Shown one piece after another: positions 14,371-16,836 of a DNA stretch of 32,000 bases. Position numbers and translations under genes: made by a program. Source of the DNA: Sulfolobus acidocaldarius DSM 639 (GTDB lineage: Archaea > Thermoproteota > Thermoprotei_A > Sulfolobales > Sulfolobaceae); NCBI RefSeq assembly GCF_000012285.1, contig NC_007181.1, positions 2,100,001 through 2,132,000 on the forward strand, given 5' to 3'. Within the stretch, counting starts at the first letter, position 1. Each line of letters begins with the position of its first letter. The notes under the pieces are model-generated. The model did not search any database, was not told the DNA's origin, and saw nothing but the letters and a program-made list of their open reading frames with translations.

Positions 14371-14623
14371 CCTACCCTTCTTATTATAACCTAAAGGATG
14401 GTTATGGCTCTATTTCCCTTATTCTCACTTCAAACCACATGTTTTACATAAAAGAACCCAAATTTACTTTTCAGGATAACTCAGTCTAAAGTCCAGTTCT
14501 ACGACAAAGTTCTTTTCTCTTACTGATAAGAGAGTAATTTGAAATAATTCTTTTCTTTTATCCACTCCTAATTGATAATAAAAACACTTAAATACTCTCC
14601 ATCATCATATATTATTGATCCTT

Positions 14624-15058
14624 ATGGCAGACATAAAAAATAGTAAAACTGCAGAAAACTTAAGGCACGCATTTATGGGAGAAGCAATGGCAAACAGAAG
14701 ATACCTATTCTTCGCCAAGACTGCTGATGAAGAAGGATATCCTGAATTAGCTCAATTAATGAGAAGTATAGCTGAAGGTGAAACAGCCCACGCATTCGGA
14801 CATTTAGACTACATAAAACAAGGAGGAATTGGTGATCCAGCCACAGACAAACCAATAAGGACATTAGAAGAAATGTTACAATCTGCAATAGCTGGAGAGA
14901 CTTACGAATGGACACAGATGTACCCTGGTTATGCAAAGCAAGCTAGAGAAGAGGGATTTGAAGACGTTGCAGAGTGGTTCGAGACTTTAGCAAGAGCTGA
15001 GAAGAGCCACGCAGAGAAATTCACCAAGGCTTTAGAGTTACTTAAGGGAGGCAAGTAA
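14624..15058 (+). CDS. Sulerythrin-type rubrerythrin (diiron four-helix bundle, no rubredoxin domain)
   Basis: About 144 aa with two E...E-x-x-H diiron motifs (GEAMANRRY/EGETAH and GETYEW/AEKSHAEKF) and no C-terminal CxxC rubredoxin module. The track start at 14615 is TTG; the ATG at 14624 gives MADIKNSKTAENL. The stop overlaps the next gene's start (TAATG at 15056..15060). Confidence 0.85.
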   Translation: MADIKNSKTAENLRHAFMGEAMANRRYLFFAKTADEEGYPELAQLMRSIAEGETAHAFGHLDYIKQGGIGDPATDKPIRTLEEMLQSAIAGETYEWTQMYPGYAKQAREEGFEDVAEWFETLARAEKSHAEKFTKALELLKGGK

Positions 15059-16251
15059 TGTATACTTTAAATCCAAGTAATCCTTCTTTTTTTAATTCTG
15101 AGAAATTATACTCTGAATTCATTAGACAAGCAACAGTTTGTCATGGCTGTAGAATGTGTGTAAACTATTGTGATTCCTTCCCTGTATTGTTTAAAAAAAT
15201 CGACAGTAAAGAACAGGATCTAAACAAGCTTACCCTGGATGACTTATTTGACGTTGCGTCAAAGTGTTTCCACTGTAAACTTTGTTATGTGAATTGCCCC
15301 TATGTCCCCCCACATGAATTTAACATGGATTTTCCCAGCCTAATGGAATGGGCTTGGTTATATTACAAGAGCAAAACTGGACTCAGAATTAAAGATTACA
15401 TGTTTGAAATGTTGGATGCAACCAACTTAGCAAGACCTTTAGTGAAACATTTAATGCAAAAAGGAAAAGAAGTTCTTGGACTACATAAAGACGCCCCCAC
15501 TTTGCCCGTTTCTGAAAAAGGTTTGAAGGAAAAAGTTAAGCCCAAGAAAATAGAAAATCCCAAGGCTAAAGTTGCACTATTCACTACTTGCCTTGTGGAT
15601 AACTTCTTTACAGATATAGGTGAAGATCTAATAGAAGTCTATAACTCTTTAGGTATAGAAGTTATAATACCTAACTTTTTGTGTTGCGGTGCTCCAATGC
15701 TTGATGCTGGAGATGTTAACAGACTAAAGAAGAATGCAGAACATAATATGAAATTAATTGAAGAGCTTGTGAATAAGGGCTATGACATTGTTGTACCGAT
15801 CCCTACATGTGCTCTAATGATCAAAGAATACCATAGGGTTCTTGATAAAAAAGTACCTAAAGTTTATGACTCTATTGAGTATCTACAAAAGCTGAAAAAT
15901 GAGGGCAAAATTGAATTAAATGCCAAATTTGACAAGACCATATACTATCATCCACCTTGCCATTTAAAGTACTTGCAAGTTGGTCTGCCAGGACCACGAT
16001 TACTTAGAACTCTAGGAGCCAAGGTCGAGATATCAAATAAGGGCTGTTCAGGGATTGACGGAGGATGGGGTTTAAGGAATTACGATACAGCTAGAAGAGT
16101 TGGAAGTAAAATGATGGAGTCGTTTAAGCAAAGTAAAGCTGATGTATTCATGACTGAGTGCCCACTTGCTGGGCTTCAAATTGAAAAAGCCTCTAATAAG
16201 AGGCCGTTACATCCTATACAGTTATTAAAGGAGGCGATGAAAAACGGTTAA
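15058..16251 (+). CDS. Fe-S oxidoreductase with two 4Fe-4S ferredoxin motifs and CCG domains (HdrD/GlcF/GlpC-like)
   Basis: CHGCRMCVNYC and CFHCKLCYVNCP are both C-x2-C-x2-C-x3-C motifs. There is a CCG motif (NFLCCGAP) and a second Cys-rich domain (HPPCH...GCSG...ECP). A GGGAGG Shine-Dalgarno site lies upstream. Confidence 0.8.
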   Translation: MYTLNPSNPSFFNSEKLYSEFIRQATVCHGCRMCVNYCDSFPVLFKKIDSKEQDLNKLTLDDLFDVASKCFHCKLCYVNCPYVPPHEFNMDFPSLMEWAWLYYKSKTGLRIKDYMFEMLDATNLARPLVKHLMQKGKEVLGLHKDAPTLPVSEKGLKEKVKPKKIENPKAKVALFTTCLVDNFFTDIGEDLIEVYNSLGIEVIIPNFLCCGAPMLDAGDVNRLKKNAEHNMKLIEELVNKGYDIVVPIPTCALMIKEYHRVLDKKVPKVYDSIEYLQKLKNEGKIELNAKFDKTIYYHPPCHLKYLQVGLPGPRLLRTLGAKVEISNKGCSGIDGGWGLRNYDTARRVGSKMMESFKQSKADVFMTECPLAGLQIEKASNKRPLHPIQLLKEAMKNG

Positions 16252-16345
16252 GTTAAGTGTAGAAGAATTCCTTCCATGGAAAGAGTATGAAAAGGTAAGG
16301 AGAGAGAGAGTTAAAAGGATAGTTGAAATAAAGAAGATAAGAAGA

Positions 16346-16822
16346 GTGAGTTTAGGAGATAGATTATCATTACTATTTGAGAACAGAGACACAGTAGCGC
16401 ACCAAATACAGGAGATGATATATCTAGATAAGTTATATAAGAAGGAGGATATTCTCAGGGAAATACAGGTCTACTCTACGCTGTTACCATGCAACGGAAA
16501 ACTTAAGGCTACACTCTATATTCATGCATATGACTTCAAGGACTTAGACTGGGTATTTGACAATCTAGGTGGAATTTATAATGAGGTTTACCTGAAAGTG
16601 GGAAGTAAATTAATACAAGGGGAGCCTGAGGGAGGGAGGGAACAGGGTAGAGAGTTCTCAACGGTTCAATACCTGATTTTTGATCTTCAGGGAGAAAAGA
16701 GTACAGATATGGAGTTACAAGTACTTCACAAGAACTACAAATACACAGTGAAACTGGATAAGAAACTAGCAGAGGACTTGATTAAAGACGCCTATGAAGT
16801 TTGTGAGCAAGTTATAGGTTAA
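16346..16822 (+). CDS. DUF3501-like protein (as called from the GTG; conserved-looking N-terminus lies upstream without a start codon)
   Basis: 158 aa from the GTG at 16346. The same frame is open from 16241 and encodes a further 35 residues (KTVKLSVEEFLPWKEYEKVRRERVKRIVEIKKIRR) that match my recollection of DUF3501 N-termini. It is the third gene of the rubrerythrin / Fe-S / DUF3501 string. Confidence 0.65.
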   Translation: MSLGDRLSLLFENRDTVAHQIQEMIYLDKLYKKEDILREIQVYSTLLPCNGKLKATLYIHAYDFKDLDWVFDNLGGIYNEVYLKVGSKLIQGEPEGGREQGREFSTVQYLIFDLQGEKSTDMELQVLHKNYKYTVKLDKKLAEDLIKDAYEVCEQVIG

Positions 16823-16826
16823 TAAC

Positions 16827-16836
16827 TTTTTATTTT
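16827..16836 (+). terminator. Oligo-T terminator candidate after the DUF3501 gene
   Basis: TTTTTATTTT starts 5 nt after the TAA at 16820..16822, in a 16-bp convergent gap. Confidence 0.4.

What the first reader, a model, noticed from the sequence alone, without database searches (positions are those of the whole stretch)
14624..16822. Translationally coupled sulerythrin / HdrD-like CCG Fe-S protein / DUF3501 triad: a conserved but functionally unassigned redox module
Seen in sequence: the rubredoxin-less rubrerythrin ends in TAATG overlapping the start of a protein with two 4Fe-4S motifs and CCG domains. That protein is in turn followed directly by a DUF3501-like ORF. Established knowledge: sulerythrin from Sulfurisphaera tokodaii has a solved diiron structure but no defined physiological electron donor. 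CCG domains, as in HdrD/HdrB/GlcF, carry thiol:disulfide or quinone-linked redox chemistry. From memory, the same rubrerythrin + (Fe-S)-binding protein + DUF3501 neighbourhood recurs in many bacteria. Inference: the CCG protein is the missing reductase that feeds electrons to the diiron site, replacing the absent rubredoxin domain for peroxide or O2 detoxification. DUF3501 would be an adaptor or third subunit.
Basis: partly seen in the sequence, partly recalled or inferred. Interest (0 to 1): 0.6.

Follow-up and report, generated by a model that had tools for sequence, protein, structure and literature searches.

The report
Known aerobic-type rubrerythrin three-gene operon
The three genes are real and tightly linked, but they are the already published "aerobic-type rubrerythrin system", a peroxide-defence enzyme with two helper proteins that nobody has yet tested biochemically; the one unusual local detail is that the third gene has no normal start codon.

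Summary
Window 14624-16822 (+) holds three genes:
- a 144-aa rubredoxin-less rubrerythrin with no cysteine, about 80% identical to S. tokodaii sulerythrin (PDB 1J30);
- a 397-aa protein with two 4Fe-4S motifs and two CCG domains, joined to the first gene by TAATG;
- a DUF3501 protein (PF12007, 187 bits).

Cardenas, Quatrini & Holmes 2016 (PMC5114695) named the CCG protein RFO and proposed that it replaces the missing rubredoxin domain. Gray et al. 2020 and a 2025 B. pseudomallei preprint repeat this. Maaty et al. 2009 list the Fe-S gene and its neighbours as H2O2-induced and report the rubrerythrin as up-regulated in S. solfataricus. This scan has noted the module 273 times on other DNA.

My own checks agree. 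The same gene order is present in 17 of 18 genomes of the same family. Of 80 bacterial loci, 51 carry the full triad and 17 carry rubrerythrin-DUF3501 without RFO. DUF3501 matches only the orphan structure 3FJV. RFO folds like LutA, EtfD and HdrB but keeps 4+3 CCG cysteines.

The electron-donor role of RFO/DUF3501 remains plausible and untested.

Side result: the DUF3501 start codon here is ACG. ATG and ACG have swapped at least 4 times in the family.

The parts
14588..14594 (+). TATA-like box (TTAAATA) 29 nt upstream of the rubrerythrin ATG; implies a leaderless or near-leaderless first cistron
   Evidence: A BRE/TATA-like A/T-rich block lies 22-36 nt upstream of the ATG in the other 16 Sulfolobaceae loci. 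Promoter function is inferred, not shown.
14624..15058 (+). Sulerythrin-type (aerobic-type, rubredoxin-less) rubrerythrin, 144 aa, stop included
   Evidence: PF02915 E 4.7e-27. About 80% identical to S. tokodaii sulerythrin 1J30, by my count on the printed alignment (E 1.1e-74). 0 Cys and two ExxH motifs. Single copy in the genome.
15047..15051 (+). GGAGG Shine-Dalgarno-like motif before the RFO start; the stop and start overlap as TAATG at 15056-15060
15058..16251 (+). [quoted passage not shown]
   Evidence: PF02754 E 1.8e-20 with 2 stretches. Best NCBIfam hit is GlpC at 186.6 bits, below the 278 cut-off. All 15 Cys are invariant in 69 family members. AF2 pLDDT 94.1. Foldseek hits: LutA, EtfD, HdrB. 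Single copy.
16230..16234 (+). GGAGG Shine-Dalgarno-like motif inside the last RFO codons, 9 nt before the ACG
   Evidence: The AAGGAGG / AAGAGG block is kept at the same place in the related loci printed.
16244..16246 (+). ACG at the position where most relatives have the DUF3501 ATG/GTG/TTG start, in the +1 frame overlapping the RFO stop
   Evidence: One search shows ACG in 5 of 17 loci. At least 4 changes are needed on the tree. Its use as an initiation codon is inferred.
16253..16822 (+). DUF3501 protein (about 189-192 aa if started near 16244; the ORF called by gene finders is 16346-16822, 158 aa), stop included
   Evidence: PF12007 E 4.6e-55. PDB 3FJV by sequence, E 3.7e-18. AF2 pLDDT 92.2 with a confident N-terminal helix at residues 9-30. 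Foldseek TM 0.86 to 3fjv_A only. Family-invariant K27, R30 and R31 lie upstream of GTG 16346.
16827..16836 (+). T5-A-T4 run 5 nt after the DUF3501 stop; likely archaeal terminator
   Evidence: The function is inferred from general knowledge of oligo-T termination in archaea.

Best explanation
This is the Sulfolobus acidocaldarius-type copy of the published three-component 'aerobic-type rubrerythrin system', organised as one operon with three cistrons:
- a leaderless sulerythrin gene;
- an SD-led RFO gene coupled through TAATG;
- a DUF3501 gene that overlaps the RFO stop.

Sulerythrin is the catalytic part. Its diferrous site reduces H2O2, and probably organic hydroperoxides, to water. This step is shown for homologues, not for this protein.

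RFO is a soluble module of HdrD/GlpC/EtfD architecture. I infer that RFO and DUF3501 form a stoichiometric pair that re-reduces the diferric site. Electrons would pass from an external donor (quinol, reduced ferredoxin or a thiol; unknown) through the CCG-domain centre and the two 4Fe-4S clusters to the rubrerythrin. DUF3501 carries no conserved cysteine and belongs to an orphan fold. It would be the docking piece on the rubrerythrin side, because it stays with rubrerythrin even where RFO is missing.
For: Identity of the parts.

Module conservation:
- 17 of 18 Sulfolobaceae genomes carry DUF3501, and the 17 intact loci have identical gene order.
- 51 of 80 bacterial loci have the full triad in the same order and on the same strand. 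A further 17 have Rbr-DUF3501 adjacent.
- Cardenas et al. 2016 found all three genes together in 185 genomes. Gray et al. 2020 found the trio co-distributed even in protist mitochondria.

RFO-DUF3501 stoichiometric coupling:
- The junction is an overlap of 4 to 20 nt or a gap of a few nt in most of the 66 triads. Rbr-RFO gaps in bacteria are 45-275 nt.
- RFO-DUF3501 fusions are reported in Nitrosomonas.

Peroxide role:
- The S. solfataricus microarray lists SSO2643 (5.2x), SSO2644 (6.7x) and SSO2645 (4.3x) as H2O2-induced. The text reports the rubrerythrin SSO2642 as up-regulated on the array, and one of its 2D-gel spots rises 1.8x.
- Ferriperoxin has peroxidase activity and is essential for aerobic growth.
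- A preprint cites sulerythrin catalase/peroxidase activity.
- A Fur-family regulator is adjacent in 47 of 80 bacterial loci; AhpC is nearby in 13 and thioredoxin in 11.

Electron-transfer architecture: all 15 Cys are invariant in 69 sequences. The fold spans both the ferredoxin and CCG parts of M. smegmatis EtfD (TMq 0.60 over 366 columns).
Against: - No experiment anywhere shows RFO or DUF3501 binding or reducing a rubrerythrin.
- Ferriperoxin works in vitro with NADPH/FNR alone.
- RFO is absent from 17 of 80 loci. No comparable homologue was found anywhere in at least 1 of 5 such genomes, and only a weak one in another.
- No donor gene (flavoprotein, cytochrome b, thioredoxin reductase) is part of the operon in this window.
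- The CCG cysteine complement is reduced to 4+3, so the type of cofactor there is unknown.
Confidence: 0.62

Rival explanations
1. Sulerythrin is reduced by a general cellular reductase (FNR-type enzyme, ferredoxin). RFO and DUF3501 would then do a different job in the same stress regulon, such as maintaining or metallating the diiron site (native sulerythrin is isolated as Fe-Zn) or re-reducing oxidised thiols or disulfides at the CCG centre.
For: - Ferriperoxin is a competent peroxidase with NADPH and FNR only.
- Rbr-DUF3501 pairs exist without RFO.
- DUF3501 has no conserved Cys. Its invariant residues are Glu, Gln, Asn, Arg and Lys, which fits binding or chaperoning better than electron transfer.
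- Sulerythrin and BpRbr bind metals promiscuously (abstracts).
Against: - The in-vitro FNR reaction used a non-cognate set-up with mM Km values.
- An Fe-S protein with 15 invariant cysteines kept next to a diiron enzyme in 51 of 80 loci is most simply a redox partner.
- The trio is co-distributed across bacteria, archaea and mitochondria.
Confidence: 0.22
2. The module is mainly an O2-scavenging oxidase rather than a peroxidase. Diferrous sulerythrin would react with O2, and RFO would feed electrons from the respiratory quinol pool.
For: - Recent work treats sulerythrin as an O2-activating diiron site (PMC12851003 abstract).
- RFO's closest full-length fold relative, EtfD, and its closest sequence family, GlpC, belong to quinone-linked systems (the quinone link is from general knowledge).
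Against: - The documented induction is by H2O2.
- The biochemistry of homologues shows peroxidase activity.
- RFO has no predicted membrane segment or partner in the operon.
Confidence: 0.1
3. The adjacency is fortuitous or limited to this genome.
For: None found.
Against: Same order in 17 related genomes and in 51 of 80 bacterial loci from many phyla, plus the published counts.
Confidence: 0.01

Closest known systems
Three-component aerobic-type rubrerythrin system (RBR + RFO + DUF3501), Cardenas, Quatrini & Holmes 2016 (PMC5114695); also Gray et al. 2020 (PMC7050145)
   Same: Same three families, same gene order and same proposed role of RFO as a stand-in for the rubredoxin domain. Sulfolobales are named in that paper as the lineage where the RFO-containing form is oldest.
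   Different: Nothing of substance at module level. Local details not in the paper: the TAATG coupling, the ACG at the DUF3501 start position, and the 4+3 CCG cysteine pattern.
Sulerythrin of Sulfurisphaera (Sulfolobus) tokodaii, PDB 1J30 and many later entries
   Same: About 80% identical over 143 residues, no Cys, same ExxH motifs, same length.
   Different: An orthologue in another genus. The domain-swapped dimer and metal content were not testable here.
Ferriperoxin (Fpx) of Hydrogenobacter thermophilus, Sato et al. 2012 (PMC3317640)
   Same: Single-domain rubrerythrin of the same lineage. Peroxidase for H2O2 and organic hydroperoxides, and needed for aerobic growth.
   Different: It was shown to accept electrons from NADPH/FNR in vitro. 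In Hydrogenobacter the RFO-like gene is unlinked, whereas here it is translationally coupled.
HdrD / GlpC / EtfD-type Fe-S modules (2 x 4Fe-4S + two CCG domains) and LutA / HdrB CCG proteins
   Same: Same domain order and fold: Foldseek EtfD 9ojn TMq 0.60 over 366 columns, LutA 9a6l_A TMt 0.75, HdrB 5odc_B TMt 0.62. Best profile hit is GlpC.
   Different: Scores below the curated cut-offs for GlpC, HdrB, GlcF and TfrB. No flavoprotein or membrane partner sits in the operon. Only 4+3 invariant Cys lie in the CCG region, and the second motif reads C-S-G in all 69 sequences.
PDB 3FJV, 'novel protein of unknown function' from Burkholderia pseudomallei (DUF3501)
   Same: Same family and fold (E 3.7e-18; TM 0.86, 28% identity).
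   Different: It is a structural-genomics entry with no function assigned. No other fold relative was found in the PDB at E <= 0.001.

Membership tests
Aerobic-type rubrerythrin system (RBR+RFO+DUF3501) | Rubrerythrin domain without a rubredoxin domain | tested here: met
   144 aa, PF02915 only, 0 Cys.
Aerobic-type rubrerythrin system (RBR+RFO+DUF3501) | Co-localised COG0247-type Fe-S protein with a CCG domain (RFO) | tested here: met
   Adjacent and overlapping by one base; PF02754 with two stretches plus two CxxCxxCxxxC motifs.
Aerobic-type rubrerythrin system (RBR+RFO+DUF3501) | Co-localised PF12007 (DUF3501) gene | tested here: met
   187 bits against a cut-off of 25. The same order is seen in related genomes and in bacteria.
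Aerobic-type rubrerythrin system (RBR+RFO+DUF3501) | The three proteins act together in peroxide reduction | not testable with these tools
   Only indirect evidence exists: H2O2 induction in S. solfataricus. No biochemistry has been published.
Sulerythrin | Diiron ligand set (Glu and two ExxH motifs) in a four-helix bundle | tested here: met
   ExxH at residues 53 and 126. The alignment to 1J30 is gap-free, about 80% identical, and keeps these positions.
Sulerythrin | Domain-swapped dimer | not testable with these tools
   This needs a structure of the oligomer.
GlpC (anaerobic glycerol-3-phosphate dehydrogenase subunit C) | Score above the NCBIfam equivalog cut-off, with glpA/glpB partners | tested here: not met
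   186.6 bits against a cut-off of 278 (NF008369) and 127.6 against 279.9 (TIGR03379). No flavoprotein gene lies next to it.
HdrD / HdrB heterodisulfide reductase | Two complete five-cysteine CCG motifs (CX31-39CCX35-36CXXC, motif recalled from the literature) for two non-cubane 4Fe-4S clusters | tested here: not met
   Invariant Cys are C178, C209, C210 and C251 in domain 1, and C301, C330 (C-S-G) and C368 in domain 2. HdrB NCBIfam scores are 29.7 against 345 and 17.5 against 450. The fold itself is HdrB-like.
HdrD / GlpC / EtfD architecture (works-like, not membership) | N-terminal 2 x 4Fe-4S ferredoxin part followed by two CCG domains in one chain | tested here: met
   Foldseek alignment to EtfD 9ojn spans 366 columns.
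DUF3501 (PF12007) | Profile match and the 3FJV fold, including the N-terminal helix | tested here: met
   Invariant K27, R30, R31 and the FEN..T..Q.QEM block are present.

The most novel reading that the evidence does not exclude
In this genome the DUF3501 cistron has no ATG, GTG or TTG. I propose it is initiated at the near-cognate ACG (16244-16246) or a neighbouring near-cognate codon. A GGAGG lies 9 nt upstream, and ribosomes terminate on the overlapping RFO stop, so this would be translational coupling that tolerates a non-canonical start.

ATG and ACG have swapped at least 4 times in Sulfolobaceae while the N-terminal helix stayed under purifying selection. If correct, this would be a natural case of ACG initiation in Crenarchaeota. 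It would also fix DUF3501 output to that of RFO, which fits a 1:1 RFO-DUF3501 complex.
Probability: 0.45. Interest if true: 0.45.

Novelty: already known. Interest (0 to 1): 0.2.

Why it matters
The module is widespread: 3332 DUF3501 cluster representatives at 50% identity, and it occurs in many aerobic bacteria, Sulfolobaceae and some mitochondria. It probably answers how rubredoxin-less rubrerythrins are re-reduced in aerobes. That question is still open experimentally, so a biochemical test in the genetically tractable S. acidocaldarius would be useful. The genomic observation and the hypothesis themselves add nothing beyond the 2016 paper.

Tried and rejected
2. A conserved operator upstream of the operon in 15 non-redundant Sulfolobaceae promoters: only the BRE/TATA block recurs, and its count is within the range of shuffled sequences. 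An 'ACT..TAAT'-like pattern seen by eye did not exceed chance.
3. Natural RFO-DUF3501 fusions in my own sample: none among 66 triads. The apparent long open frame in L089 comes from a run of N. I rely on Cardenas et al. for the Nitrosomonas fusions.
4. +1 frameshift fusion of RFO and DUF3501 in this genome: no shared slippery motif at the junctions of the five ACG loci (by inspection). I judge it unlikely.
5. GlpC or HdrB/HdrD membership: rejected on curated cut-offs and the cysteine pattern.
6. Fold relatives that could hint at a DUF3501 function: none besides 3FJV.
7. Papers using guessed S. acidocaldarius locus tags: none found.
8. Literature on ACG or near-cognate initiation in Sulfolobus: nothing relevant in the library.
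9. Model coordinates are not exposed, so I could not map conserved residues onto the 3D surface.
Full report
**Observation**

The window region 14624-16822 (+) contains three co-directional genes.

Gene 1 runs from ATG 14624 to TAA 15056-15058 and encodes 144 residues.
- It has a single Rubrerythrin domain (PF02915, E 4.7e-27).
- It has no cysteine and two ExxH motifs.
- It aligns without gaps to S. tokodaii sulerythrin, PDB 1J30 (E 1.1e-74). I count about 80% identity on the printed alignment.

Gene 2 runs from 15058 to 16251 and encodes 397 aa.
- Its ATG shares a base with the stop of gene 1 (TAATG). A GGAGG lies 6 nt upstream.
- It has two CxxCxxCxxxC motifs and two CCG-domain stretches (PF02754, E 1.8e-20).

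Gene 3 is a DUF3501 protein (PF12007, E 4.6e-55, 187 bits against a cut-off of 25). The profile aligns from window 16256 to 16819.

So the sequence observation is correct. One nuance concerns gene 3. The mechanically called ORF starts at GTG 16346. The family homology begins at the RFO stop (TAA 16249-16251), in the +1 frame, and that stretch has no ATG, GTG or TTG.

The genome is one contig of 2,225,959 bases. From memory this equals the size of Sulfolobus acidocaldarius DSM 639. S. acidocaldarius was also the only one of 14 control genomes to match PF12007.

**Already published**

A full-text search for DUF3501 led directly to Cardenas, Quatrini & Holmes 2016 (PMC5114695).
- They count 185 finished genomes with all three genes and 25 with RBR plus DUF3501 only.
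- They note RFO-DUF3501 fusions in Nitrosomonas.
[quoted passage not shown] Other papers bear on the same module.
- Gray et al. 2020 (PMC7050145) call it a three-component system and find the trio in protist mitochondria.
- A 2025 preprint on B. pseudomallei rubrerythrin repeats the partner hypothesis. It cites catalase/peroxidase activity of sulerythrin.
- Sato et al. 2012 (PMC3317640) showed that the Hydrogenobacter homologue ferriperoxin is an NADPH/FNR-dependent peroxidase required for aerobic growth.
- Maaty et al. 2009 (PMC2739297) studied H2O2 stress in S. solfataricus. Their microarray lists SSO2643 'glpC' (5.2x), SSO2644 (6.7x) and SSO2645 (4.3x) as induced. The text reports the rubrerythrin SSO2642 as up-regulated on the array, and one of its gel spots rises 1.8x. 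They already remarked that the 'glpC' next to the rubrerythrin suggests another function.

This scan's own index holds 273 notes on the same module in at least 229 genomes, and the follow-ups shown to me reached the same conclusion.

**Independent neighbourhood check**

PF12007 is present in 17 of 18 sampled genomes of the window's family and in 0 of 12 other families of the order.
- The 17 intact DUF3501 loci (16 related genomes plus the window's own) carry Rbr-RFO-DUF3501 in the same order.
- One further match, L018, is cut by a contig end.

A pattern scan of the species-representative genome collection gave 586 confirmed DUF3501 loci. The best 80 are all bacterial. They include Binatia, Nitrospirota, Chloroflexota, Rokubacteria, Myxococcota, Aquificota, Acidobacteriota, Actinomycetota, Elusimicrobiota and Bacteroidota. 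They break down as follows:

| Arrangement | Loci |
|---|---|
| Full triad, same order and strand | 51 |
| Rbr directly followed by DUF3501, no RFO | 17 |
| Partial RFO between Rbr and DUF3501 | 3 |
| Cut by a contig end | 6 |
| DUF3501 alone | 3 |

These genomes are not independent; many are Nitrospira relatives.

I searched five of the Rbr-DUF3501-only genomes for an RFO elsewhere.
- Three have an unlinked RFO-like gene: 40% identity in a Hydrogenobacter, as the 2016 paper says, and 35% in two others.
- One has none.
- One has only a 23% match.

DUF3501 is thus the tighter companion of the rubrerythrin.

Conversely, the RFO-DUF3501 junction is the tightest in the operon. It is an overlap of 4-20 nt or a gap of a few nt in most of 66 triads. 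Rbr-RFO gaps in bacteria are 45-275 nt. Together these patterns fit DUF3501 as the piece that touches both partners.

Recurrent bacterial neighbours point to a peroxide/iron regulon, not to an electron donor:
- a Fur-family regulator in 47 of 80 loci;
- AhpC/TSA in 13;
- thioredoxin in 11;
- an A-type Fe-S carrier in 12.

**The proteins**

DUF3501:
- It has a solved relative, PDB 3FJV, a structural-genomics entry from B. pseudomallei with no function (phmmer E 3.7e-18).
- An AF2 model built on 49 sequences is confident (pLDDT 92.2). In the PDB it matches only 3FJV (TM 0.86), so this is an orphan fold.
- Invariant residues are K27, R30, R31, F42, E43, N44, T47, Q51, Q53, E54, M55, P79 and A86. 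No cysteine is conserved. A redox cofactor bound through Cys is therefore unlikely.

RFO:
- Its best profile hit is GlpC, but below the curated cut-off (186.6 against 278 bits). HdrB, GlcF and TfrB are far below theirs.
- Its AF2 model (pLDDT 94.1) resembles LutA (9a6l_A, TMt 0.75) and HdrB (for example 5odc_B, TMt 0.62).
- Over nearly its whole length (366 columns, TMq 0.60) it resembles M. smegmatis EtfD (9ojn).
- The architecture is therefore the HdrD/GlpC/EtfD type: a ferredoxin part followed by two CCG domains.
- All 15 cysteines of the window protein are invariant in 69 archaeal and bacterial RFOs: eight for two 4Fe-4S clusters, four in CCG domain 1 and three in domain 2. In domain 2 the motif reads C-S-G, flanked by invariant H302, D334 and H385.
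- From memory, the HdrB motif has five Cys per domain. RFO should therefore not be filed as an HdrB/HdrD or GlpC member. What sits in its CCG region is open.
- Both Rbr and RFO are single-copy in this genome.

**Mechanism**

Shown for homologues: peroxidase chemistry at the diiron site, and H2O2 induction of the cluster.

Inferred:
- RFO and DUF3501 form a stoichiometric pair that returns electrons to diferric sulerythrin.
- DUF3501 acts as the adaptor.
- The donor is unknown; it could be quinol, ferredoxin or a thiol.

I put about 0.6 on this. About 0.2 goes to the rival in which a general reductase feeds sulerythrin and the helpers do maintenance or thiol repair. About 0.1 goes to an oxidase rather than peroxidase role. 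Chance adjacency is excluded.

**Side result: the DUF3501 start**

Another note of this scan, e1-2532828, flags the missing start codon. My comparison across 17 Sulfolobaceae loci shows the following.
- In 12 loci an ATG, GTG or TTG start lies at or overlapping the RFO stop, in a shifted frame in 11 of them. A typical case is 'A ATG GTT AA', where RFO reads Asn-Gly-stop.
- In five loci the homologous codon is ACG: the window, its genus mate, and three other genera. The change is synonymous in RFO (AAT to AAC).
- On an RFO+DUF3501 tree the ACG state needs at least 4 changes.
- Two of the ACG loci have a canonical codon 8-9 codons downstream. The window, its genus mate and L011 have none before the conserved P-W-K-E-Y-E-K-V-R block.
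- In the genus mate, the GTG that gene callers use here (16346) is GTA. The whole frame shows 23 synonymous against 3 conservative changes, including changes upstream of that codon.
- Six (nearly) invariant family residues and a confident helix lie in the 'start-less' part.
- A GGAGG sits 9 nt before the ACG.

I read this as initiation at ACG or a neighbouring near-cognate codon, coupled to termination of RFO (about 0.45-0.6). A truncated product or a frameshift fusion is less likely. I found no paper on ACG starts in Sulfolobus.

**Verdict**

Novelty: already known. Interest is low, at 0.2. It rests mainly on the open biochemistry and the start-codon detail.

Noticed in passing
window 16238-16346: The DUF3501 N-terminus has no ATG, GTG or TTG. 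The codon homologous to the start in relatives is ACG (16244-16246), with GGAGG at 16230-16234. ACG occurs in 5 of 17 Sulfolobaceae loci and needs at least 4 changes on the tree. In the genus mate the GTG at 16346 is GTA. Databases hold the truncated 158-aa version of this protein (P0002).
   Followed up: partly
P0150, P0153, P0166, P0175, P0212 (about 300 aa); P0135 (538 aa): A sizeable subfamily of DUF3501 proteins carries a C-terminal extension of about 100 aa. Several of them share an H-V-x-V-E-P block and end near R-W-H. The extension has only a weak, sub-threshold HIT-domain hit (P0153, E 0.0015). One representative is fused to an Rce1-like CAAX protease domain.
   Followed up: partly
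L054, L083, L069 (bacterial loci): Between rubrerythrin and DUF3501 only part of RFO is matched: in L054 and L083 the C-terminal 60-130 residues, in L069 two separate pieces. These may be decaying RFO genes or mini-proteins.
   Followed up: no
L019-L098: A Fur-family regulator gene sits on the same strand directly before the rubrerythrin gene or directly after DUF3501 in 47 of 80 bacterial loci. AhpC, thioredoxin and an A-type Fe-S carrier recur nearby. No such regulator is adjacent in the archaeal window.
   Followed up: partly
P0003, P0038, P0046 (Sulfolobales DUF3501 orthologues): Some database names call these DUF3501 proteins 'fructose-bisphosphate aldolase' or 'fructose-6-phosphate aldolase 2'. 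Nothing in Pfam, NCBIfam or the fold search on the window's orthologue supports that, so it looks like a propagated misannotation.
   Followed up: no
window 14588-14623 and L099-L114: The rubrerythrin genes of Sulfolobaceae have a BRE/TATA-like block ending 22-36 nt before the ATG, which suggests leaderless first cistrons. No further conserved operator rose above shuffled controls.
   Followed up: yes
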